A stretch of 64,000 nt of DNA from Candidatus Nomurabacteria bacterium (GCA_025361085.1 JANYAX010000036.1:7208-71207); one strand, 5' to 3'. Shown: positions 2,155 to 57,439, numbered from the stretch's first letter. Numbers and translations are program-made. The notes: generated from the sequence alone by a model not told the origin.

Positions 2155-3243
2155 ATGTCAAAAGATTATTACAATACACTTGGTGTTGACAAGAGTGCTT
2201 CGAAGGAAGAAATCAAGAAAGCATTTCACAAGCAAGCTCATAAATATCACCCCGATAAAAATAAAGGTGATGATAGTAAATTCAAGGAAGTGAATGAAGC
2301 TTACCAGGTTCTTTCTGATGACCAGAAACGTGCAAGATATGACCAATTCGGTTCTACCGATGGCCCAATGGGTGGTGGTTATGGTGGAGGTCAGCAAGGT
2401 GGATTTGGTGGATTTGACTTTTCAGGTTTTCAGAATGGTCAAGGTTTCGATATGGGAGATCTCGGAGATATTTTCGGAGATTTCTTTGGTGGCGGAATGG
2501 GGCGAGGTACAAAAAATGTACGTCGTGGAAGAGATATCCAAACTGAAATTGATTTAACTTTCGAAGAATCAGTTTTTGGCGTTAATAAGAATATTTCAAT
2601 CACTAAACAATCTACTTGCGATATTTGTAAAGGAACTGGTGGAAAAGTTGGTACGAAAATGAATACTTGTAAAACTTGTAATGGACAAGGGAAAGTGCGT
2701 GAAGTTCGTCGCTCGATACTTGGTTCATTTGAAACTACTAAAACTTGTGAGACTTGTTTAGGTTCAGGCAAAGTTTCATCAGAGAAATGTTCTAACTGTC
2801 ATGGCATAGGTGTTCTAAGAAAGCAATCAGAAATAAATATCGGCGTTCCATCTGGAATAAATGATGGGGAGATGCTAAAGATGGCAGGTGCGGGTGAAGA
2901 TATTCAAGGTGGTAAATCTGGTGATTTATATATAAAAGTAAGAGTTAAACCTCATGCAATTTATAAGCGAGATAGTCTTAATCTGACGATGGATTTGCCA
3001 ATTAAACTTACCGATGCACTTCTTGGTATGGTTTATAATTTGAAAACATTGGAAGGGAACACGATCGAAGTTAAAATTCCTGAAGGTATAAATCATAATG
3101 AATTACTTAGAGTTAGAGGCAGAGGTGTGCCATCGAGCCGTGGACGCGGTGATATAATAATTCGTATTCAAGTCAAAATGCCGACAAAACTTTCACGAAG
3201 AGAAAAAGAATTAATTGAAAAATTAAAAGAAGAAGGCCTCTAA
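2155..3243 (+). CDS. dnaJ: Chaperone DnaJ (Hsp40)
   Basis: J-domain with HPD (KYHPDKN); Gly/Phe-rich linker; four CxxCxGxG zinc-finger repeats; directly downstream of dnaK. Confidence 0.93.
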   Translation: MSKDYYNTLGVDKSASKEEIKKAFHKQAHKYHPDKNKGDDSKFKEVNEAYQVLSDDQKRARYDQFGSTDGPMGGGYGGGQQGGFGGFDFSGFQNGQGFDMGDLGDIFGDFFGGGMGRGTKNVRRGRDIQTEIDLTFEESVFGVNKNISITKQSTCDICKGTGGKVGTKMNTCKTCNGQGKVREVRRSILGSFETTKTCETCLGSGKVSSEKCSNCHGIGVLRKQSEINIGVPSGINDGEMLKMAGAGEDIQGGKSGDLYIKVRVKPHAIYKRDSLNLTMDLPIKLTDALLGMVYNLKTLEGNTIEVKIPEGINHNELLRVRGRGVPSSRGRGDIIIRIQVKMPTKLSRREKELIEKLKEEGL

Positions 3244-3245
3244 TT

Positions 3246-3276
3246 CTCCAGATAGTGGCAAGGCCACTATCTGGAG
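3246..3276. repeat. Perfect palindromic hairpin CTCCAGATAGTGG-CAAGG-CCACTATCTGGAG, 3 nt after dnaJ stop; member of a 2-copy family (second copy 20186..20218)
   Basis: 27-nt core ccagatagtggcaaggccactatctgg identical at both loci; outer stem bases differ but stay complementary (ctc/gag vs ccc/ggg); no U-tract follows. Confidence 0.6.
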
Positions 3277-3363
3277 GAGGGAAAACCTTTACTTATCGCT
3301 CATTTTTGCTATGATTGTTAATATTATTATTTATTACAGGTCGTAGACCTGATATATAAAGAG

Positions 3364-4755
3364 ATGAATAAAAGTTCTAAGGCTGCAAAGAAGCTCTGGA
3401 AAATTGGTTCTAAAGATTTCAACACTCAATATTTTGATTACAATAAAGAGGGTGATTTAATTATTAAAGAAGGACACAATATTTATAATGTTCGTTATTT
3501 GGCAGAGAAATTCGGCACTTCACTAGAAATTCTCATGCCTTTTGTTATTGAGGAGAGATTAGAAGATTTTCTAGATCTTGCCGCGGCCATATCAAAGAAA
3601 GTAGAATTTAAAGGTAAATTCTTTTATAACTACCCGATGAAGGTCAATCAAAGCAAGGAGATAGTCATGTCTGTTGTTGGTGAAGGAGCACACCTTGAAA
3701 CGTCATCATACAATGAACTTTGGATGGTTAAAAAAATGCTAGAACAAGAAAAGTTCAATCCGAACATTCGTATACTTTGTTCAGGTCCAAAAACTGATAG
3801 CTATATAAATCTTATCGATGAATTACAACATAAAGGTGTAAAAATTTTTCCTTTGATCGAAGGACCAAACGAATTAAAGTTTTTACAATATTCTAAATAT
3901 GATGTCGGTATACGTCTCGATATCCCAGTGAAAGCAAGTTCTAGATGGAATAAACCAGTAGACAGATTTGGTTTCTCAGCAAAAGAAATTTTGGACATGG
4001 GATCGTTTAAGAATTTGAAAATTCTTCACTATCATGTTGGATCGCAAATTGAAAAACTTAATGATGTTTTGATTCCGATTAAATATGCGCTTGATGTTTA
4101 CTTCAAACTCAAAGAAAAAAATCCATCGCTTGATACTCTTGATATCGGAGGAGGGATGCCGATACCTTACGAGAGAACAAAAGGTTATCCTGTCGAAAAG
4201 TTAATGGAAAGAATACTTAAATTAGTCAAAACAGAATCAGAAAAGCGCGGGCTTCCACATCCAAATTTGATTTGTGAATGGGGTAGATATATGGTTGCTC
4301 CAGCGCAAATTACAGTTTACAAAGTTATTGATACAAAAAGAATAAAACATAAAGCCAGTCCTGCCACAAAATGGTATGTTATTGATGGTAGTTTTATGAA
4401 TGATCTTCCAGACACTTGGGCCATCGATCAAAAATGGGCAATTGCTCCTGTAAATAATAAAAGAGACGGTAATCTAAATGAAGTTTGGCTTGCTGGCTCC
4501 TCCTGTGATTCTGATGATATATATAAAGGATTGAAAGAAACTCTCACCTTACCAGTATTCGATATGAACGGTGAAAATGACGGTGCTGGACCAATGTATA
4601 TTGTTGTGTTTGATACAGGTGCTTATCAGACATCTCTTGCTGCACAACATTGCATGCTATCATCACCGATGAAAATAGTGGTAGAAAATGGCCACATCGT
4701 CGTTGTAAAAAAACGTGAGTCAGCTGAAGATGTTGGTAAAACTTTCGGATGGTAA
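3364..4755 (+). CDS. PLP-dependent group IV (alanine-racemase fold) basic amino acid decarboxylase; likely arginine decarboxylase given neighbours
   Basis: 463 aa; YPMKVN PLP-lysine region, GGGMP, HYHVGSQ, EWGRY, CDSDD motifs typical of the Orn/DAP/Arg decarboxylase family. Confidence 0.7.
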   Translation: MNKSSKAAKKLWKIGSKDFNTQYFDYNKEGDLIIKEGHNIYNVRYLAEKFGTSLEILMPFVIEERLEDFLDLAAAISKKVEFKGKFFYNYPMKVNQSKEIVMSVVGEGAHLETSSYNELWMVKKMLEQEKFNPNIRILCSGPKTDSYINLIDELQHKGVKIFPLIEGPNELKFLQYSKYDVGIRLDIPVKASSRWNKPVDRFGFSAKEILDMGSFKNLKILHYHVGSQIEKLNDVLIPIKYALDVYFKLKEKNPSLDTLDIGGGMPIPYERTKGYPVEKLMERILKLVKTESEKRGLPHPNLICEWGRYMVAPAQITVYKVIDTKRIKHKASPATKWYVIDGSFMNDLPDTWAIDQKWAIAPVNNKRDGNLNEVWLAGSSCDSDDIYKGLKETLTLPVFDMNGENDGAGPMYIVVFDTGAYQTSLAAQHCMLSSPMKIVVENGHIVVVKKRESAEDVGKTFGW

Positions 4756-4796
4756 TTAATTAGGTTCTAGTACCTAGTTTCTAGGAGTTAGAAAAA

Positions 4797-4904
4797 GGGG
4801 TAGCATTATGAAAAATTATGAGTAGGTGTGGGCGCGCCGGAGCCTCGAGTGTACTCACGAGAGGTGGAGAGGGATAAGCGAATAATTTTTCATAATGCTA
4901 CCCC
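4797..4904. repeat. GC-rich approximately 66-nt core flanked by perfect 21-bp inverted repeats (GGGGTAGCATTATGAAAAATT / AATTTTTCATAATGCTACCCC); candidate structured RNA or MITE-like element
   Basis: Inverted repeat read directly; core gagtaggtgtgggcgcgccggagcctcgagtgtactcacgagaggtggagagggataagcg is far more GC-rich than its surroundings and contains the internal hairpin CTCG-AGTGTACTCA-CGAG. Confidence 0.5.
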
Positions 4905-4941
4905 TTTTATTATAAAATCATTGTGATAAAATATATACATT

Positions 4942-5961
4942 ATGAATACAAATTTAAACACTTTAGAATTTATTCTAAAAAATTATAAGAATTTCAATGC
5001 ACGTGCGACGAAAGACGCAACTATTTCGTATTGGCGTCATATTGAAAAGGGTGGAAAAATGTTTTGGGCCATGGGTGGGGCGATGTCTTCTGCTCAGCTT
5101 GGAATAACACTTGCGCCTGCAATCCGAAGTGGTTTGATTTCGGGAATGTCTGTGACAGGAGCGAACCTCGAAGAATCACTCTTCCGTCTTGTTGCTCACA
5201 AGAGTTACAAAGATTTTCCTGATTATCGATATTTTACTAAAGAAGATGACACAAAAATTCTCGAAGACCGCATGCGTCGCGTGACAGATACAAGTATCCC
5301 AGAAGATGAAGCATTTCGTGTTGTCGAGAAACAAATTGTCCCTACTTGGAAGACAGCCACAGTAGATGGCACAAGAAAGTTTTGGCATGAATATTTCTAC
5401 GAGCTTATTCAATCGATTGATAAAGAAAAGCACGAAGGAAGTGCCGATGAATGTTGGTTACTTGCAGCAGCCGAGAAAAATATTCCAATTGTAGTTCCTG
5501 GATATGAAGATTCAACTTTTGGAAATATTTTTGCTTCATATGTAAAGACTGGTGAATGCAGTGCAAATATTGCAAAATCCGGAGTTGAATACATGTGTGC
5601 TTGGTATGACCAATATCAGAAATTATCCGAAGGTCAGGGTGTCGGGTTCTTCCAAATTGGTGGTGGTATATCTGGGGATTTTCCAATCTGTGTAGTCCCT
5701 TCTATCAAATATGATCTGCAAAAAGATGTTAAACCATGGGCATATTTCTGCCAAATTTCTGATTCGACAACTTCATATGGTTCATATTCAGGGGCAACTC
5801 CAAATGAGAAAATTACTTGGGATAAACTTACAAAAGACACTCCAATGTTTGTCATCGAATCCGATGCAACTATCGTCGTTCCTCTAGTACTAAATGCACT
5901 TATGGAATGCCAAGCAAACCCAGCTGAAGCAAATAAATTAATAGAAAAGTACACAGCATAA
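4942..5961 (+). CDS. Deoxyhypusine synthase-like protein (DHS family; possible aminobutyl transferase / homospermidine-type synthase)
   Basis: 339 aa, DHS-typical length; VTGANLEES resembles the DHS VTTAGG-EED NAD-region motif; sits between a decarboxylase and an agmatinase-family gene. Confidence 0.6.
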   Translation: MNTNLNTLEFILKNYKNFNARATKDATISYWRHIEKGGKMFWAMGGAMSSAQLGITLAPAIRSGLISGMSVTGANLEESLFRLVAHKSYKDFPDYRYFTKEDDTKILEDRMRRVTDTSIPEDEAFRVVEKQIVPTWKTATVDGTRKFWHEYFYELIQSIDKEKHEGSADECWLLAAAEKNIPIVVPGYEDSTFGNIFASYVKTGECSANIAKSGVEYMCAWYDQYQKLSEGQGVGFFQIGGGISGDFPICVVPSIKYDLQKDVKPWAYFCQISDSTTSYGSYSGATPNEKITWDKLTKDTPMFVIESDATIVVPLVLNALMECQANPAEANKLIEKYTA

Positions 5962-5973
5962 ATAATTTTTGAA

Positions 5974-7026
5974 ATGGACAACAAAAAAATTATAGAAAAA
6001 AAAATATCAAATTTTAACCCAAATGAAAGTGGTGAACTTCATGAGGGAATTTTTGGTTTGCCATTTAGTGTAAATGAATCTAAATTAATTCTTGTACCGG
6101 TGCCATGGGAAGCAACAACTACTTATGGTGATGGAGCCTCATATGGTCCTAAATCAATATTAGAAGCCTCACAGCAAATAGATTTATATGATTCAATATA
6201 TCCAGATGGTTGGAAGGAGGGAATTGCGATGCAAGATATTCCGATGAATATATTTAAAAAGAGTGAAGAAATTGGCGAAAAGACAAATGAATATGTAAGA
6301 AAATATAACGAAAGACAAATTGATAAAACATTACAAAATGAAATAAATAAAGCGGGTGAAGAATTAAATAAATATGTTAAACAAGTTACTTCCGATTTTT
6401 TAAATAAAGACAAGATTGTTGGAGTTATTGGAGGGGAACATAGTGTTCCACTTGGGTATATTGAAGCTTTGTCAGAAAAATATGAAGATTTTGGTATTTT
6501 GCACATTGACGCACATTCTGATCTCAGAGAAGCATATCAAGGTCTTACTTATTCTCATGCGTCTATATTTTATAATGTTTTAAAAATTAAAAATGTCTCT
6601 AGTCTTGTTCAGTTCGGTGTTCGAGATTTTTGTGAAGATGAATTCAATCTTATTCAAAAAAATGAAAAACGTATATTTCTTTTCACTGATTATGAAATAA
6701 AGAAAAAAATATTTAGAGGAACGACAATAAAAAAAGAATTTAATGAAATAATTAAAAAACTTCCCCAAAATGTATATGTCTCTTTTGATATCGATGGCCT
6801 TATTCCTTATCTAAGTCCTAATACTGGTACGCCTGTAGTGGGTGGTTTCACTATTGAAGAAGTTGTCTTTTTGATTGAAGAAGTTGTTAATTCTGGTAGA
6901 AAAATAATAGGCTTTGATTTGTGTGAGGTTTCCCCAGGAGAAAATATCAATAATAAATGGGATGGAAACGTTGGGGCAAGAGTTTTGTATAAGCTTTGTC
7001 AGCTTACATTAAAAAGCCAGAAGTAG
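5974..7026 (+). CDS. Arginase/agmatinase-family ureohydrolase (agmatinase-like)
   Basis: 350 aa; Mn-binding motifs GGEHS, HIDAHSDL, SFDIDGL..P..GTP characteristic of the ureohydrolase family. Confidence 0.75.
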   Translation: MDNKKIIEKKISNFNPNESGELHEGIFGLPFSVNESKLILVPVPWEATTTYGDGASYGPKSILEASQQIDLYDSIYPDGWKEGIAMQDIPMNIFKKSEEIGEKTNEYVRKYNERQIDKTLQNEINKAGEELNKYVKQVTSDFLNKDKIVGVIGGEHSVPLGYIEALSEKYEDFGILHIDAHSDLREAYQGLTYSHASIFYNVLKIKNVSSLVQFGVRDFCEDEFNLIQKNEKRIFLFTDYEIKKKIFRGTTIKKEFNEIIKKLPQNVYVSFDIDGLIPYLSPNTGTPVVGGFTIEEVVFLIEEVVNSGRKIIGFDLCEVSPGENINNKWDGNVGARVLYKLCQLTLKSQK

Positions 7027-7083: not shown

Positions 7084-7114
7084 AAGGCGTACAAATAATG
7101 TACGCCTTTTATTT
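7084..7114. terminator. Bidirectional rho-independent terminator hairpin (AAGGCGTACA-aataa-TGTACGCCTT) between convergent genes
   Basis: 10-bp perfect stem flanked by A-run upstream and T-run downstream. Confidence 0.55.
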
Positions 7115-7512
7115 TAATAATTGTTGTCATTGAGAACCTTCATCAAACCGACAGGCACTCCAATGCATCCAAATATTCCCCACGCAACATAAATTGGGGT
7201 TATTGATTTTATCATAAAACCAAAAATTACCCCCAGAATTGTTGCACCAACGAAGAGTATTAAATATATTATTACTAATTCTTTTAATACTTTTTTCCAA
7301 ACTTTTTCTCTTTTCATTGTTTCCTCCTTTTTGTTTGCTCTCTCATCCTTTTTACGAAGATAAAGAAGACTCATGGATCTTCTTGCTTTTTGTTTTGCTG
7401 TCAGTCTCATCTTTTGATTGTTTTTAAGATTAATTGAATTGTGTTTACCTCCGACAAAAGTTGGGGACAAAAATAATTTAACTAATAAATGAAAAGAATT
7501 TTCAAGGAACAA
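7114..7512 (-). CDS. Small membrane protein (2 TM at C-terminus); true start probably an internal Met
   Basis: ORF with basic N-terminal region and hydrophobic C-terminal half; no recognisable family. Confidence 0.35.
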   Translation of the reverse strand: MFLENSFHLLVKLFLSPTFVGGKHNSINLKNNQKMRLTAKQKARRSMSLLYLRKKDERANKKEETMKREKVWKKVLKELVIIYLILFVGATILGVIFGFMIKSITPIYVAWGIFGCIGVPVGLMKVLNDNNY

Positions 7513-7647: not shown

Positions 7648-8232
7648 ATGAGAATTGCAAGAAGTGAACAGATCGCGTTTTCAAGTATACTCTTTGATTC
7701 ATTGTTTGGGCTAGTACTTTTTTTTAGTATTGATTCTATTCTTGATATAAAGAATCCGACCAGTTTGTTTTTCTATTTATTTAGTATTATTATTTTGGCT
7801 CATTGGTGGCTAATGTTTAAATCATGCGATGACGCTTATAATGAAGAAGTTACCAACTCCGCACTCGATTTAATCATCGGTGTTGTTCAATTGATATTTA
7901 TTGAGTTTATAGTACTTGCATCACGCTCATCTGACTACATTTTGGCTACAAAATTTCTATTAGCGTTATTTATAATTGATTTGTTGTGGGCAGTAATTTG
8001 GCTTTATATAGGTAAATGGAGAACAGCAGATATTTCAAAAATTCATTTAATGGAAAAAGAATTAAAGTATAACATCTTAATTGATTCAATCGCTGTTGTT
8101 TTGTTCTTGCTGTTTATGTTTTTCTTTCAGTCGTTTATGCCAATATTTTTTGTTATTGGATTTGTAATAATCTATTTAATATACATAATTCTTTCTTTTA
8201 AATATAAAATTATTGATATAGATATATTCTAA
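7648..8232 (+). CDS. Polytopic membrane protein, unknown function
   Basis: 194 aa, 4-5 hydrophobic segments; sits upstream of SET-domain gene with a 10-nt gap. Confidence 0.4.
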   Translation: MRIARSEQIAFSSILFDSLFGLVLFFSIDSILDIKNPTSLFFYLFSIIILAHWWLMFKSCDDAYNEEVTNSALDLIIGVVQLIFIEFIVLASRSSDYILATKFLLALFIIDLLWAVIWLYIGKWRTADISKIHLMEKELKYNILIDSIAVVLFLLFMFFFQSFMPIFFVIGFVIIYLIYIILSFKYKIIDIDIF

Positions 8233-8241
8233 AAAGTTAAA

Positions 8242-8706
8242 ATGAATTATAAAAAAATTCTTAATCAAGTCAAAAAAAGGCCTCGTGTTCACGGTTATAT
8301 CTCTCCCAATACTGAAACAAAATTGAGCCTAATTCATGGATTAGGGTTGTTTTCAAAGAGAGTTATAAATAAGAACGAAATAGTTGCTGTGTGGGGTGGA
8401 TGTATTGCAACAAAAAACGAGATAGAAAAATTACCCAAAGATATTGGTTACGAATATGCACTTGAGATATATCCAGGGTATTATCTTGCTGAGGTGAAAG
8501 AGTCAGAATTAGATTCTTCTGACTTTGTAAATCATTCTTGCTCACCAAACTGTAAAATTGTAAATAAATTTACAATGATATCAAAACGAAAAATTAAAAA
8601 GGGGGAAGAACTAACGTCAGATTTTTCTAACCATAAAATGAACGGGCATAATTTCTTATGTAATTGTGGTGCCAAAAATTGTAAAAAAAAGACCTTTTTT
8701 AATTAA
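8242..8706 (+). CDS. Minimal SET-domain protein (putative protein-lysine methyltransferase)
   Basis: 154 aa; GLGLFS (GxG), NHSCSPNC (NHSCxPN), EELTSDF (ELxxDY-like) and post-SET CNCGAKNC (CxCx4C) all present in canonical order. Confidence 0.7.
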   Translation: MNYKKILNQVKKRPRVHGYISPNTETKLSLIHGLGLFSKRVINKNEIVAVWGGCIATKNEIEKLPKDIGYEYALEIYPGYYLAEVKESELDSSDFVNHSCSPNCKIVNKFTMISKRKIKKGEELTSDFSNHKMNGHNFLCNCGAKNCKKKTFFN

Positions 8707-8732: not shown

Positions 8733-9656
8733 ATGTCATGGTTTTTTATTGCACTGATTGGTCCATTTCTATATGCTTTAACAAATTATATAGATAAAAT
8801 TCTTTTAGAAAAATATTTTAAAGAAAGTGGTATTGGAACTATCTTGTTGTTTTCTTCGTTGATATCTATGTTTGCGCTACCTATTTTTCTGATTATAGAT
8901 AATACAGTTTTAGATGTTAATATAATAAATATTCTCATTCTCGCATTAAAAGGGACATTGGGGGTGGGAGTATTGTGGTTTTATTTAATGGCCTTAAAAA
9001 ATGAAGAGGCTTCAGTTGTTATTGTTTTTTATCAGCTTGTGCCAGTGTTTGGAGCAATATTAGGCTATTTTTTTCTTGGTGAAATACTAACAAAAATGCA
9101 AGTAATCTCTATGGCTATAATTATTTTAGGGACAATGATTATATCATTTGAAATAGATTCAGATAATCATTTTAGATTAAGAAAGAAAAACACTATTATC
9201 CCAATGATCGGAGCCTCTTTATTTTGGGCGACAGGAGGAGTTATTTTCAAATCTGTTGCGCTTAAAGAAAACTTATGGCGGTCATTATTTTGGGAACATG
9301 TAATGTTAGTGTTAGTTGGCATAATTATTTTTATTTTTGTAAGGTCATATCGCAATAGTTTTATTTTAGCGCTAAAAAATAATTCTAAAAATATTTTATC
9401 ACTCAATATTATAAATGAATTTATATATATATCTGGAAATGTTGCTGTAGCTTATGCGTATTTACTTGCTCCAATTGGACTTGTATTACTCACAGAATCT
9501 TTTCAACCGATCTTTGTTTTAATTATTGGAGTGATTTTAACTGCTTTATTCCCTAAAATTATAACCGAAAAAATGCAAGCAAAACATCTTTGGCAGAAAG
9601 TTATTGCTATTAGTATAACGGCACTAGGTACATATCTTTTGCTTTTTTATAAATAA
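8733..9656 (+). CDS. EamA/DMT-superfamily transporter (10 TM)
   Basis: 307 aa, two repeated 5-TM halves; typical drug/metabolite transporter topology. Confidence 0.65.
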   Translation: MSWFFIALIGPFLYALTNYIDKILLEKYFKESGIGTILLFSSLISMFALPIFLIIDNTVLDVNIINILILALKGTLGVGVLWFYLMALKNEEASVVIVFYQLVPVFGAILGYFFLGEILTKMQVISMAIIILGTMIISFEIDSDNHFRLRKKNTIIPMIGASLFWATGGVIFKSVALKENLWRSLFWEHVMLVLVGIIIFIFVRSYRNSFILALKNNSKNILSLNIINEFIYISGNVAVAYAYLLAPIGLVLLTESFQPIFVLIIGVILTALFPKIITEKMQAKHLWQKVIAISITALGTYLLLFYK

Positions 9657-30213: not shown

Positions 30214-30252
30214 AATTGGCTACCTTATTTAGGTAGCCAATTCTATTTTATG

Positions 30253-30336
30253 TGCCCGGGGTGGGACTTGAACCCACACGCCATAAATGGCAAGAAATTT
30301 TAAGTCTCTCGTGGCTACCAATTACACCACCCGGGC
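30253..30336 (-). tRNA. tRNA-Leu (anticodon UAA)
   Basis: 84 nt; GCCCGGG/CCCGGGC acceptor stem, anticodon loop CUUAAAA, long variable arm, T-loop GTTCAAGTC; no CCA encoded. Confidence 0.85.
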
Positions 30337-57302: not shown

Positions 57303-57336
57303 AAGCAGGTCCGCGGAAATTACGCGGACCAATATC

Positions 57337-57405
57337 GCGGGTTAGTGTAATGGTCGCACGTTTGGCTCATGCCCAAACGGACTCGGTTCGATTCCGAGGC
57401 CCGCA
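57337..57405 (+). tRNA. tRNA-like element, anticodon CAU (Met/Ile2-type), non-canonical acceptor/D junction; preceded by hairpin GGTCCGCG-gaaatta-CGCGGACC (57308..57330)
   Basis: D-stem GTGT/GCAC, anticodon stem TTTGG/CCAAA with loop CUCAUGC, T-arm CTCGG-TTCGATT-CCGAG, acceptor GCGGG/CCCGC; only one nucleotide between acceptor and D stem. Confidence 0.35.
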
Positions 57406-57439
57406 ACAAGTAATGTTCTTTAAAAGAAAGGAGACCAAT

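What the first reader, a model, noticed from the sequence alone, without database searches (positions are those of the whole stretch)
3364..7026. Three-gene polyamine cluster: group IV decarboxylase, deoxyhypusine-synthase-like and agmatinase-family ureohydrolase
Bacteria lack hypusine, so a DHS homologue next to an arginine-decarboxylase-like enzyme and a ureohydrolase points to an alternative route. From published biochemistry of bacterial/archaeal DHS homologues, DHS-like enzymes can transfer an aminobutyl group onto agmatine (N1-aminobutylagmatine), which an agmatinase-like ureohydrolase then converts to sym-homospermidine. The clustering supports such an agmatine-centred pathway. Alternatively the DHS-like enzyme modifies a translation factor.
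Basis: partly seen in the sequence, partly recalled or inferred. Interest (0 to 1): 0.55.

Follow-up and report, generated by a model that had tools for sequence, protein, structure and literature searches.

The report
Arginine-to-homospermidine operon in a CPR bacterium
Three adjacent genes in a tiny-genome (CPR) bacterium most likely turn arginine into the polyamine homospermidine by a route published in 2024-2026, so this is a sound but essentially known pathway found in a new host.

Summary
Three co-directional ORFs at exactly 3364-4755, 4942-5961 and 5974-7026 encode a short alanine-racemase-fold arginine decarboxylase, a deoxyhypusine-synthase (DS) family protein and an agmatinase-branch ureohydrolase. 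A promoter-like site and a strong terminator bound them.

The gene set and order match the experimentally characterised bacterial SpeY pathway (Kobayashi 2024; Li et al., JBC Sept 2026). In that pathway ADC makes agmatine. SpeY couples two agmatines into N1,N9-bis(guanidino)homospermidine (G44G, "diagmatine"). A dedicated ureohydrolase then releases homospermidine.

Supporting evidence:
- The three genes stay clustered in CPR relatives despite rearrangement and replacement of the ureohydrolase.
- Clade members elsewhere sit beside long SpeA plus agmatine deiminase, or are fused to SpeD-like decarboxylase domains.
- The catalytic Lys and NAD-site residues are kept, while the spermidine-binding aspartates are lost.
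- No efp gene lies near any copy.

Caveats:
- The DS protein belongs to a divergent subfamily that fails every curated SpeY and DHS model.
- That subfamily is about as conserved as DnaK.
- It has Asp where DHS has catalytic His288.
- I could not place a characterised SpeY inside this clade.

Verdict: new member of a known kind, modest interest.

The parts
3288..3315 (+). Promoter-like site (TTTACT-16 nt-TATGAT with TG) in the dnaJ-ADC gap, preceded by a hairpin at 3244-3276
   Evidence: Consensus scan and sequence of the gap. Weak evidence: the number of promoter-like hits in the region equals the shuffle expectation.
3364..4755 (+). PLP-dependent arginine decarboxylase of the short ('ancestral') alanine-racemase-fold type, 463 aa
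   Evidence: Pfam PF02784 + PF00278. Best NCBIfam matches are SpeA models over the N-terminal part (188.6 bits, below cut-off). It aligns to E. coli SpeA 83-387 and 482-580 and V. vulnificus SpeA 63-367 and 467-573, skipping the ~95-aa four-helix-bundle insert. The PLP-Lys motif YPMK93VNQ, GGG262, EWGR305 and SSC381DS are present.
4756..4941 (+). ADC-DS spacer with a 26-bp perfect inverted repeat (4793-4819 / 4882-4908) around a GC-rich core, followed by a T-run; possible intercistronic terminator/attenuator or stability hairpin
   Evidence: RNA MFE -67.2 kcal/mol, z = -7.3. No Rfam family. Unique in the window and loci. Non-homologous long hairpins occur at the same position in relatives (z -6.9, -6.9, -4.1, -2.1).
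4942..5961 (+). Deoxyhypusine-synthase-family NAD enzyme, SpeY-like (predicted diagmatine/G44G synthase), 339 aa
   Evidence: Pfam DS 1.2e-35. Below all curated SpeY/DHS cut-offs. Catalytic K295, E289, W293, and NAD-site E78, D190, GGG240-242, D308 are conserved; N195, D246, Y279, Y282 replace human D243, H288, D313, D316. Context and fusion evidence.
5974..7026 (+). Mn-dependent ureohydrolase of the agmatinase branch, 350 aa (predicted G44G/diagmatine ureohydrolase)
   Evidence: Pfam Arginase 5.8e-53. TIGR01230 agmatinase 164.7 bits vs cut-off 174.3. Metal-ligand motifs GGEH156S, D179AH181SD183 and D272ID274 are present. Best PDB relatives are agmatinases 3pzl/3lhl. The start codon is 12 bp after the DS stop.
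7084..7108 (.). Bidirectional intrinsic terminator closing the operon
   Evidence: 10-bp stem (5 GC pairs), 5-nt loop, T-runs on both strands.

Best explanation
The three genes form an operon that makes sym-homospermidine from arginine by the SpeY ('diagmatine') pathway. Step 1: the PLP-dependent decarboxylase converts L-arginine to agmatine. Step 2: the DS-family enzyme uses bound NAD to oxidise the primary amine of one agmatine. It carries the 4-guanidinobutyl group as an imine on Lys295, passes it to the amine of a second agmatine, and reduces the product with the NADH formed. This yields N1,N9-bis(guanidino)homospermidine (G44G, caldomycin, diagmatine) plus ammonia. Step 3: the Mn ureohydrolase removes the two guanidino groups as urea (via mono-guanidino G44) to give homospermidine. 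By analogy with characterised partners it should not hydrolyse agmatine, so no putrescine is made. Shown here: gene identities, conserved catalytic residues, operon structure, and conserved or recurrent clustering. Inferred from published homologues: substrates, G44G as the intermediate, and ureohydrolase specificity.
For: Published biochemistry: T. thermophilus CdmS couples two agmatines and a ureohydrolase then gives homospermidine (PMC10981699). Seven SpeYs from diverse phyla all make G44G, SpeY-linked ureohydrolases act on G44G but not on agmatine, and W. algicola has ancestral AR-fold ADC + SpeB + SpeY (PMC13625781). In this window: the ADC lacks the four-helix bundle, as described for that ADC type. 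The catalytic and NAD residues of the DS protein are kept, and the acidic spermidine-binding residues D243/D316 are non-acidic, as in CdmS. The ureohydrolase keeps all metal ligands. Clustering: the same operon occurs in the closest relatives. It is rearranged but still clustered in L001, L008 and L016. The ureohydrolase is replaced by a different lineage (26-31% identical) while the function is retained. Short ADC then DS forms an operon in Bacteroidota. Long SpeA plus an agmatine-deiminase-like gene flank DS in Gammaproteobacteria and Rhodothermales. SpeD-like domains are fused to DS (P0123, P0135, P0125) or sit directly upstream (L048). SpeD homologues next to speY are validated arginine decarboxylases (PMC10407285). 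Flavobacteriaceae, whose phylum (Bacteroidota) carries the clade, have homospermidine as major polyamine (PMC3072086).
Against: The DS protein is not a recognised SpeY by curated models: NF001980 gives 102.5 bits against a cut-off of 450, and NF002699 gives 64.7 against 500. None of 24 diverse clade members passes either. I could not obtain any characterised SpeY sequence, so no tested enzyme is shown to lie inside this clade. The clade has Asp246 where DHS has catalytic His288, and Tyr where DHS has Asp313 and Asp316, so the chemistry could differ. Most Myxococcota, Planctomycetota and Acidobacteriota copies have no polyamine gene within 4.5 kb. The window's ureohydrolase falls just under the agmatinase equivalog cut-off, and its specificity cannot be read from sequence. 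No metabolite data exist for any CPR bacterium.
Confidence: 0.75

Rival explanations
1. Putrescine-first (or mixed) route to the same product. ADC plus a true agmatinase make putrescine, and the DS-family enzyme then condenses two putrescines. Alternatively it couples putrescine with agmatine to give N1-aminobutylagmatine (G44), which the ureohydrolase trims; this is the first reader's version.
For: This was the accepted view of SpeY until 2024 (PMC9992855). The window's ureohydrolase is closest to agmatinases (TIGR01230 164.7 bits; PDB 3pzl, 3lhl). The ~300-aa type in sibling clusters passes the agmatinase equivalog cut-off. This DS subfamily is untested and has a different pocket (N195, D246, Y279, Y282).
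Against: CdmS did not consume putrescine or spermidine and used agmatine only. All seven tested SpeYs accumulate G44G without an agmatinase and need one to give homospermidine. SpeY-linked ureohydrolases showed no activity on agmatine. A canonical agmatinase in the operon would compete for the SpeY substrate.
Confidence: 0.12
2. Protein modification. As proposed for Haloferax aIF5A, the DS-family enzyme transfers the 4-guanidinobutyl group of agmatine onto a lysine of a protein (EF-P or another factor), and the ureohydrolase trims it to a deoxyhypusine-like residue.
For: The Haloferax model needs the same three enzymes: ADC, DHS and an agmatinase-like protein (PMC5178350). The DS protein is about as conserved as DnaK in the same genome pairs (93/91/86/83% vs 90/89-90/84/82%) and 73-81% identical across phyla, which would fit a macromolecular partner. 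The catalytic Lys is retained.
Against: In Euryarchaeota the substrate gene aIF5A lies in the cluster. Here, tblastn with E. coli EF-P found no efp in the window or in 90 loci (961 kb). Partners in other clade members include an agmatine-deiminase-like gene and decarboxylase fusions, which are small-molecule logic. Reviews state that no evidence links bacterial DHS homologues to EF-P, and that Planctomycetota, Verrucomicrobiota and Chloroflexota use EpmAB lysylation. All tested bacterial SpeYs make free G44G.
Confidence: 0.05
3. The end product is not homospermidine. The DS-family enzyme could make G44G or another guanidino-polyamine as the final product, or the ureohydrolase could serve an unrelated guanidino substrate, so that co-location reflects shared arginine/agmatine metabolism only.
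For: The window's 350-aa ureohydrolase lineage differs from the ~300-aa lineage in sibling clusters and is below the agmatinase cut-off. L048 and L064 carry DS without a ureohydrolase nearby.
Against: A ureohydrolase, or a deiminase, recurs next to DS through an independent gene replacement. There is a 12-bp gap between DS and the ureohydrolase with one shared terminator. Every SpeB homologue tested hydrolyses G44G.
Confidence: 0.04

Closest known systems
Winogradskyella algicola cluster: ancestral AR-fold ADC + SpeB-like diagmatine ureohydrolase (DUH) + SpeY (Li et al., JBC 2026, PMC13625781)
   Same: It has the same three enzyme types, including the short ADC without the four-helix bundle, and the same predicted chemistry (arginine to agmatine to G44G to homospermidine). 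Bacteroidota members of the window's DS clade show the same short-ADC-then-DS operon.
   Different: The host is a CPR (Paceibacterota-like) bacterium. The window's ureohydrolase is a 350-aa lineage, against 313 aa for the W. algicola DUH. I could not obtain the W. algicola sequences, so identity and clade membership are untested.
Thermus thermophilus caldomycin synthase CdmS (TTHA1570) with SpeB (Kobayashi et al. 2024, PMC10981699)
   Same: It is a DS-family NAD enzyme with a conserved catalytic Lys (K299 there, K295 here) and Glu (E293 there, E289 here). The positions of human D243 and D316 are non-acidic in both. It acts with an ADC and a ureohydrolase.
   Different: CdmS has Phe and Leu at those two positions, whereas the window protein has Asn195 and Tyr282. 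The paper reports the other pocket residues as identical or similar to human DHS, whereas the window protein has Asp246 at the His288 position. The NCBIfam model named for this activity (NF002699) scores only 64.7 bits against a cut-off of 500.
Eukaryotic/archaeal deoxyhypusine synthase (DHS; e.g. human 6XXJ, P. horikoshii 7cmc)
   Same: The fold is the same (profile E-values 1e-17 to 1e-24). So are the NAD site, the Lys-imine catalytic motif (W-x-K) and, presumably, the tetrameric Rossmann-type architecture.
   Different: The substrate is a protein lysine and the donor is spermidine. DHS has D243, H288, D313 and D316, all of which are replaced here. Eukaryotic DHS makes no G44G. The host here is a bacterium with no IF5A.
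Haloferax volcanii ADC / DHS / agmatinase-like aIF5A deoxyhypusination model (PMC5178350)
   Same: It uses the same three enzyme classes with agmatine as the precursor.
   Different: That cluster contains the aIF5A substrate gene, and the DHS there is a canonical archaeal type. Here no efp or IF5A gene is nearby.
Bacterial homospermidine synthase HSS (e.g. Blastochloris viridis 4TVB)
   Same: It gives the same end product and is also NAD-dependent.
   Different: The fold is not homologous, it uses putrescine rather than agmatine, and it has no catalytic Lys. The two pathways are reported to be mutually exclusive.

Membership tests
SpeY (bacterial DHS homologue, G44G/diagmatine synthase) | DS (PF01916) fold protein encoded by a bacterium | tested here: met
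   Pfam DS 1.2e-35, residues 17-318. Close homologues are named Candidatus Paceibacterota.
SpeY (bacterial DHS homologue, G44G/diagmatine synthase) | Catalytic lysine (human K329 / CdmS K299), neighbouring Glu (E323 / E293) and NAD-binding residues retained | tested here: met
   K295, E289 and W293 are invariant in 24 clade members. E78, D190, GGG240-242 and D308 align to human E137, D238, G282-284 and D342.
SpeY (bacterial DHS homologue, G44G/diagmatine synthase) | Spermidine-binding aspartates of DHS (D243, D316) replaced by non-acidic residues, as in CdmS (F204, L286) | tested here: inconclusive
   The window protein has N195 and Y282, which are non-acidic but not the CdmS residues. Archaeal DHS 7cmc also has Leu at the D316 position, so this feature is not fully discriminating. 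No SpeY sequence was available for direct comparison.
SpeY (bacterial DHS homologue, G44G/diagmatine synthase) | Genomic association with an arginine decarboxylase (any fold) and an agmatinase-type ureohydrolase or agmatine deiminase | tested here: met
   Window operon; relatives; SpeD-like fusions and upstream ORFs.
SpeY (bacterial DHS homologue, G44G/diagmatine synthase) | [quoted passage not shown] | tested here: not met
   102.5 bits vs 450 and 64.7 bits vs 500. The best E-values over 24 clade members are 2.9e-39 and 2e-28. This shows the models do not cover the clade, not that the activity is absent.
SpeY (bacterial DHS homologue, G44G/diagmatine synthase) | Produces G44G from two agmatines and no homospermidine without a ureohydrolase | not testable with these tools
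   Needs heterologous expression in speB-deficient E. coli and HR-LC-MS, as in PMC13625781.
Bona fide deoxyhypusine synthase (acts on IF5A) | Reaches a DHS equivalog model and keeps D243, H288 and D316 | tested here: not met
   DHS models score 55-91 bits against cut-offs of 304-434. The residues are N195, D246 and Y282 instead.
Bona fide deoxyhypusine synthase (acts on IF5A) | Substrate factor (aIF5A/eIF5A, or EF-P for a bacterial analogue) encoded nearby or known to be modified | tested here: not met
   tblastn with E. coli EF-P found no hit in the window plus 90 loci (961 kb) at E <= 0.01. Whole genomes were not available, so only linkage was tested.
Ancestral (short) alanine-racemase-fold arginine decarboxylase | AR-fold PLP decarboxylase closest to SpeA but lacking the ~100-aa four-helix bundle and the C-terminal extension | tested here: met
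   463 aa. It aligns to E. coli SpeA 83-387 and 482-580. SpeA models are the best NCBIfam hits over the N-terminal part. The PLP-Lys and Cys motifs are present.
Ancestral (short) alanine-racemase-fold arginine decarboxylase | Specific for L-arginine | not testable with these tools
   Inferred from SpeA affinity and the co-encoded ureohydrolase. Needs an enzyme assay.
Diagmatine ureohydrolase (DUH; SpeY-associated SpeB homologue) | Arginase-fold enzyme with a complete binuclear-metal ligand set, on the agmatinase branch | tested here: met
   H156, D179, H181, D183, D272 and D274 lie in the canonical motifs. TIGR01230 is the best model (164.7 vs 174.3, just under the cut-off).
Diagmatine ureohydrolase (DUH; SpeY-associated SpeB homologue) | Hydrolyses G44G but not agmatine | not testable with these tools
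   No sequence determinants are published. The characterised DUHs (WP_138435142, WP_014432698) could not be fetched for comparison.

The most novel reading that the evidence does not exclude
The window's DS protein represents a separate DS-family lineage that no curated model covers. It is as conserved as DnaK, 73-81% identical from CPR bacteria to Myxococcota, Planctomycetota and Acidobacteriota, and has Asp in place of the catalytic His288 and Tyr in place of Asp313 and Asp316. Its chemistry or substrate could therefore differ from the characterised SpeYs. One example would be agmatine-dependent guanidinobutylation of a protein lysine, trimmed by the ureohydrolase to a bacterial deoxyhypusine-like modification. 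Another would be synthesis of a different polyamine.
Probability: 0.07. Interest if true: 0.8.

Novelty: new member of a known kind. Interest (0 to 1): 0.3.

Why it matters
The finding extends the recently established agmatine/SpeY ("diagmatine") route to homospermidine into the Candidate Phyla Radiation. These organisms have minimal metabolism, so keeping a three-gene polyamine operon beside dnaK-dnaJ suggests that homospermidine matters to them, and it predicts a dependence on arginine. It also shows that public annotation calls this very large, highly conserved subfamily only "deoxyhypusine synthase family protein". That name hides a probable homospermidine pathway in many Myxococcota, Planctomycetota, Acidobacteriota, Bacteroidota and CPR genomes. 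The DnaK-level conservation and the His-to-Asp change at the catalytic position are worth one biochemical test.

Tried and rejected
1. Fetching characterised SpeY, DUH and ADC sequences to place the window proteins.
- The JBC 2026 paper has no supplement held as text, and only accession numbers for the ureohydrolases appear in the main text.
- tblastn against PLSDB plasmids found nothing.
- A homology search seeded with a Bacteroidales clade member returned only unnamed or MAG proteins, none from Winogradskyella.
- Result: no characterised SpeY is shown to lie in the clade.

2. EF-P linkage. tblastn with E. coli EF-P over the window and 90 loci gave no hit. The rival was down-weighted, not excluded.

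3. Known RNA families. Rfam on the whole window found only two tRNAs. A permissive scan of the ADC-DS spacer gave only miRNA-like hairpin matches far below threshold. No known riboswitch is present.

4. Other conserved neighbours of the DS gene outside CPR. Clustering 1742 flanking ORFs gave nothing above 8 loci apart from the decarboxylase and ureohydrolase groups. An FAD-oxidase plus short-chain-dehydrogenase pair occurs in 5 loci and is probably unrelated.

5. Using loss of the conserved Pro after the catalytic His to call SpeD-like partners arginine decarboxylases. The Pro is absent in the fused domains but present in L048, so the test is inconclusive.

6. Literature search for homospermidine plus DHS in Myxococcus found no paper.

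7. Structure prediction was not run. The tool returns no coordinates, so it could not resolve the pocket question.


Full report
OBSERVATION

The window carries three same-strand ORFs at exactly the coordinates given: 3364-4755 (463 aa), 4942-5961 (339 aa) and 5974-7026 (350 aa). Pfam assigns them as follows:
- Orn_Arg_deC_N plus Orn_DAP_Arg_deC
- DS (PF01916, 1.2e-35)
- Arginase (PF00491, 5.8e-53)

They lie directly downstream of dnaK (86-2020) and dnaJ (2155-3243). The dnaJ-ADC gap holds a hairpin and a promoter-like site at 3288-3315. The DS and ureohydrolase genes are 12 bp apart. A 10-bp-stem bidirectional terminator sits at 7084-7108, just after the ureohydrolase. The three genes are therefore a plausible transcription unit.

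Named close homologues come from Candidatus Paceibacterota and Nomurabacteria MAGs. The rest of the window holds housekeeping genes typical of a small genome. The host is most likely a CPR bacterium.

THE THREE PROTEINS

Decarboxylase.
- It is closest to biosynthetic arginine decarboxylase SpeA (NCBIfam NF003763, 188.6 bits over the N-terminal part).
- It aligns to E. coli SpeA residues 83-387 and then 482-580, and to V. vulnificus SpeA 63-367 and 467-573. It therefore lacks the ~95-residue four-helix bundle.
- This is how Li et al. describe the "ancestral AR-fold ADC" found next to SpeY in Winogradskyella algicola.
- The PLP-lysine motif (YPMK93VNQ) and the catalytic Cys motif are present.

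Ureohydrolase.
- It keeps all six metal ligands (H156, D179, H181, D183, D272, D274).
- It is closest to agmatinases (TIGR01230, 164.7 bits against a cut-off of 174.3; PDB 3pzl and 3lhl).

DS-family protein.
- It retains the residues that define the catalytic machinery of deoxyhypusine synthase. K295, E289 and W293 are equivalent to human K329, E323 and W327. The NAD-site residues E78, D190, GGG240-242 and D308 are also kept. Several of these are invariant in 24 diverse relatives.
- The acidic residues that hold spermidine in human DHS are replaced: D243 by N195, D313 by Y279 and D316 by Y282. His288 is replaced by D246.
- In T. thermophilus CdmS, the equivalents of D243 and D316 are likewise non-acidic (F204, L286).

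WHAT IS KNOWN

Kobayashi et al. (2024) worked on the T. thermophilus DHS homologue CdmS (TTHA1570).
- It consumes only agmatine and couples two molecules into the bis-guanidino precursor caldomycin.
- A ureohydrolase then converts caldomycin to homospermidine.

Li et al. (JBC, 23 Sept 2026) extended this to seven SpeY homologues from diverse phyla.
- All accumulate the same compound (G44G, "diagmatine") in agmatinase-deficient E. coli.
- Eukaryotic DHS and bacterial HSS do not.
- SpeY-linked ureohydrolases (C. aerophila, W. algicola) hydrolyse G44G but not agmatine.
- SpeY occurs with arginine decarboxylases of three different folds, and with either an agmatinase-type or an agmatine-deiminase-type partner.

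The window's gene set is the W. algicola architecture.

EVIDENCE FROM RELATED LOCI

CPR relatives:
- The closest relatives (DS 91-93% identical) have the same dnaK-dnaJ-ADC-DS-ureohydrolase (352-354 aa) layout.
- More distant CPR relatives (DS 81-86%) still cluster the three functions but in other orders and orientations.
- Some of them use a second ADC lineage (44-51% identical) and a different ~300-aa ureohydrolase lineage (26-31% identical to the window's). That lineage passes the agmatinase equivalog cut-off.
- Keeping the function through gene replacement is good evidence that the DS enzyme needs a ureohydrolase partner.

Outside CPR, members of the same DS clade show:
- a short ADC directly upstream in Bacteroidota;
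- a ~660-aa SpeA plus an agmatine-deiminase-like gene in Woeseia/Chromatiales and Rhodothermales loci;
- an AdoMet_dc (SpeD-like) gene directly upstream in another CPR genome (L048), and a tblastn SpeD-like match upstream in an Acidimicrobiales MAG (L050).

The exhaustive representative search also found single polypeptides that fuse a SpeD-like domain to the DS domain:
- P0123, from marine Euryarchaeota MAGs
- P0135
- P0125, which carries an extra methyltransferase domain

The Michael lab showed that SpeD homologues next to speY are arginine decarboxylases. Their examples come from marine group II Euryarchaeota, Gimesia, Solirubrobacter, Capsulimonas and DPANN archaea. These partner patterns are the ones reported for SpeY.

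No efp gene lies in the window or in any of 90 fetched loci (961 kb).

WHERE THE PROTEIN DEPARTS FROM THE TEXTBOOK CASE

The DS protein belongs to a subfamily that is clearly separate from the curated families.
- Against NCBIfam it scores 102.5 bits on "homospermidine biosynthesis protein" (cut-off 450).
- It scores 55-91 bits on the DHS equivalogs.
- None of 24 diverse clade members passes any of these.
- In 1.84 billion representative proteins, only 182 match below 1e-30 and 1361 below 1e-3.

It is also extraordinarily conserved.
- The protein is 73-81% identical between the CPR protein and those of Sorangium, Corallococcus, Cystobacter, Polyangium, Planctomycetota, Acidobacteriota, Verrucomicrobiota/Kiritimatiellia and Roseiflexus.
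- It is 51-58% identical to a second subclade in Bacteroidota, Gammaproteobacteria, Bdellovibrionota and Obscuribacterales.

Identity to the window protein in the same genome pairs:

| Locus | DS | DnaK | ADC | Ureohydrolase |
|---|---|---|---|---|
| L085 | 93 | 90 | 89 | 69 |
| L087 | 91 | 89 | 83 | 69 |
| L089 | 91 | 90 | 83 | 69 |
| L003 | 86 | 84 | 75 | 31 |
| L005 | 83 | 82 | 80 | 26 |

A neighbour-joining tree places the window's CPR group as one cluster nested among Myxococcota, Acidobacteriota and Planctomycetota sequences. Three other CPR lineages branch elsewhere, which indicates several transfers.

I could not obtain any characterised SpeY sequence. Whether a tested enzyme lies inside this subfamily remains open. 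W. algicola is the likeliest candidate, given the identical short-ADC-then-DS layout in other Bacteroidota. No bacterial SpeY was found among the solved structures.

MECHANISM AND RIVALS

Best explanation (about 0.75): arginine is converted to agmatine by the ADC. Two agmatines are converted to G44G plus ammonia by the NAD- and Lys295-dependent DS-family enzyme. G44G is converted via G44 to homospermidine plus two ureas by the Mn ureohydrolase. The gene identities, the catalytic residues and the linkage are shown here. The substrates and the intermediate are inferred from homologues.

It is disfavoured because CdmS ignores putrescine, and because SpeY-linked ureohydrolases do not touch agmatine.

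Rival 2 (about 0.05) is a Haloferax-like protein modification that uses the same three enzymes. The DnaK-level conservation would fit it. Several points count against it:
- the substrate gene is clustered in Euryarchaeota but absent here;
- the decarboxylase fusions and deiminase partners point to small-molecule chemistry;
- reviews report no link between bacterial DHS homologues and EF-P.

Rival 3 (about 0.04) is that homospermidine is not the end product.

NOVELTY AND SCORE

The pathway and this gene architecture are published, so this is a new member of a known kind. The CPR host is not mentioned in the SpeY paper. Two points add some interest:
- The DS protein sits in a hyper-conserved, annotation-poor subfamily with an Asp at the His288 position.
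- CPR genomes pair this DS with at least two unrelated decarboxylase folds.

Interest is 0.3. The most novel reading still allowed is that this subfamily has a different or additional, possibly macromolecular, substrate. I give that about 7%.

SIDE OBSERVATIONS

- The 186-bp ADC-DS spacer folds into a 26-bp perfect stem around a GC-rich core (z = -7.3). It has no Rfam match and is unique in the window. Sequence-unrelated long hairpins occupy the same spacer in several relatives.
- An EamA transporter recurs just downstream of the DS gene or cluster in CPR genomes.
- A complete-looking tailed prophage occupies about 33.5-56.5 kb.

Noticed in passing
window 4756-4941 (stem arms 4793-4819 / 4882-4908): The ADC-DS spacer forms a very stable hairpin: a 26-bp perfect stem around a GC-rich core in a ~36% GC genome, followed by a T-run (MFE -67.2, z -7.3). 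It has no Rfam family and is not repeated elsewhere. Relatives L013, L004, L005 and L089 have sequence-unrelated long hairpins in the same spacer (z -6.9, -6.9, -4.1, -2.1). L003 and L085 have none. It may be an intercistronic terminator/attenuator or an mRNA-stability element.
   Followed up: partly
window 4942-5961; loci L003-L082: The DS-family protein is as conserved as DnaK in the same genome pairs and 73-81% identical between CPR and Myxococcota, Planctomycetota, Acidobacteriota, Verrucomicrobiota and Chloroflexota. The window's CPR group is nested inside that crown group in an NJ tree, and three other CPR lineages branch elsewhere. This implies repeated horizontal transfer plus very strong constraint. 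The cause of the constraint is unexplained.
   Followed up: partly
window 5974-7026 vs L001, L003-L005, L008, L012, L013, L016: The ureohydrolase in the cluster has been swapped between lineages. The window and its closest relatives use a 350-354-aa type (just under the agmatinase equivalog cut-off). Sibling CPR clusters use a ~300-aa type (passes the cut-off) that is only 26-31% identical and usually on the opposite strand.
   Followed up: yes
proteins P0123, P0135, P0125: These are single polypeptides that fuse a SpeD-like (AdoMet_dc) domain to the DS domain. P0123 comes from marine Euryarchaeota MAGs. P0125 (756 aa) has a presequence-like N-terminus and an extra NNMT/PNMT-type methyltransferase domain between the two, which suggests a eukaryotic (possibly stramenopile) origin and a methylated product.
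   Followed up: partly
window 8733-9656; L048 7015-7929; L064 7055-7951; L087 8021-8938: An EamA-family transporter recurs immediately downstream of the DS gene or the polyamine cluster in several CPR lineages, including ones with divergent DS genes. In L087-L088 an LPG_synthase_C (DUF2156) gene lies between them. It could be a polyamine, agmatine or arginine transporter, or simply conserved synteny.
   Followed up: partly
window ~33500-56600 (tRNA-Leu at 30252-30336, tRNA-Met at 57336-57407): A tailed-phage gene set sits in this CPR-like genome: RecE-like exonuclease, replication initiator, large terminase, portal, head protease/major head proteins, tape measure and tail proteins. It is probably a prophage.
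   Followed up: partly
L085 8200-8355 and 4892-5000: In the 93%-identical relative, a 51-aa ORF with a PAD_porph (agmatine deiminase) hit lies ~2 kb downstream of the cluster and may be a relic of an alternative agmatine-processing gene. In the same relative the ADC-DS spacer is a 6% GC TAATAATTAA tandem repeat instead of a hairpin.
   Followed up: no
window 8242-8706: A 154-aa SET-domain protein (PF00856, 9.5e-15) is encoded between the polyamine operon and the EamA gene. Together with two small membrane-protein-like ORFs (7114-7512 on the minus strand, 7648-8232), it is absent from the corresponding position in L087 and L089.
   Followed up: no
L022, L023, L027, L030, L045 (next to the DS gene): In five Myxococcota/Acidobacteriota-type loci, an ORF of about 450 aa (337-474 aa) that reads like an FAD-linked oxidase lies close to the DS gene (13-50 bp away in three of them). 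In four of these loci it is accompanied by an ORF of about 246 aa that reads like a short-chain dehydrogenase, a DprE1/DprE2-like pair. Both identifications are by eye from the sequences, not from a family scan. No link to polyamines is evident.
   Followed up: no
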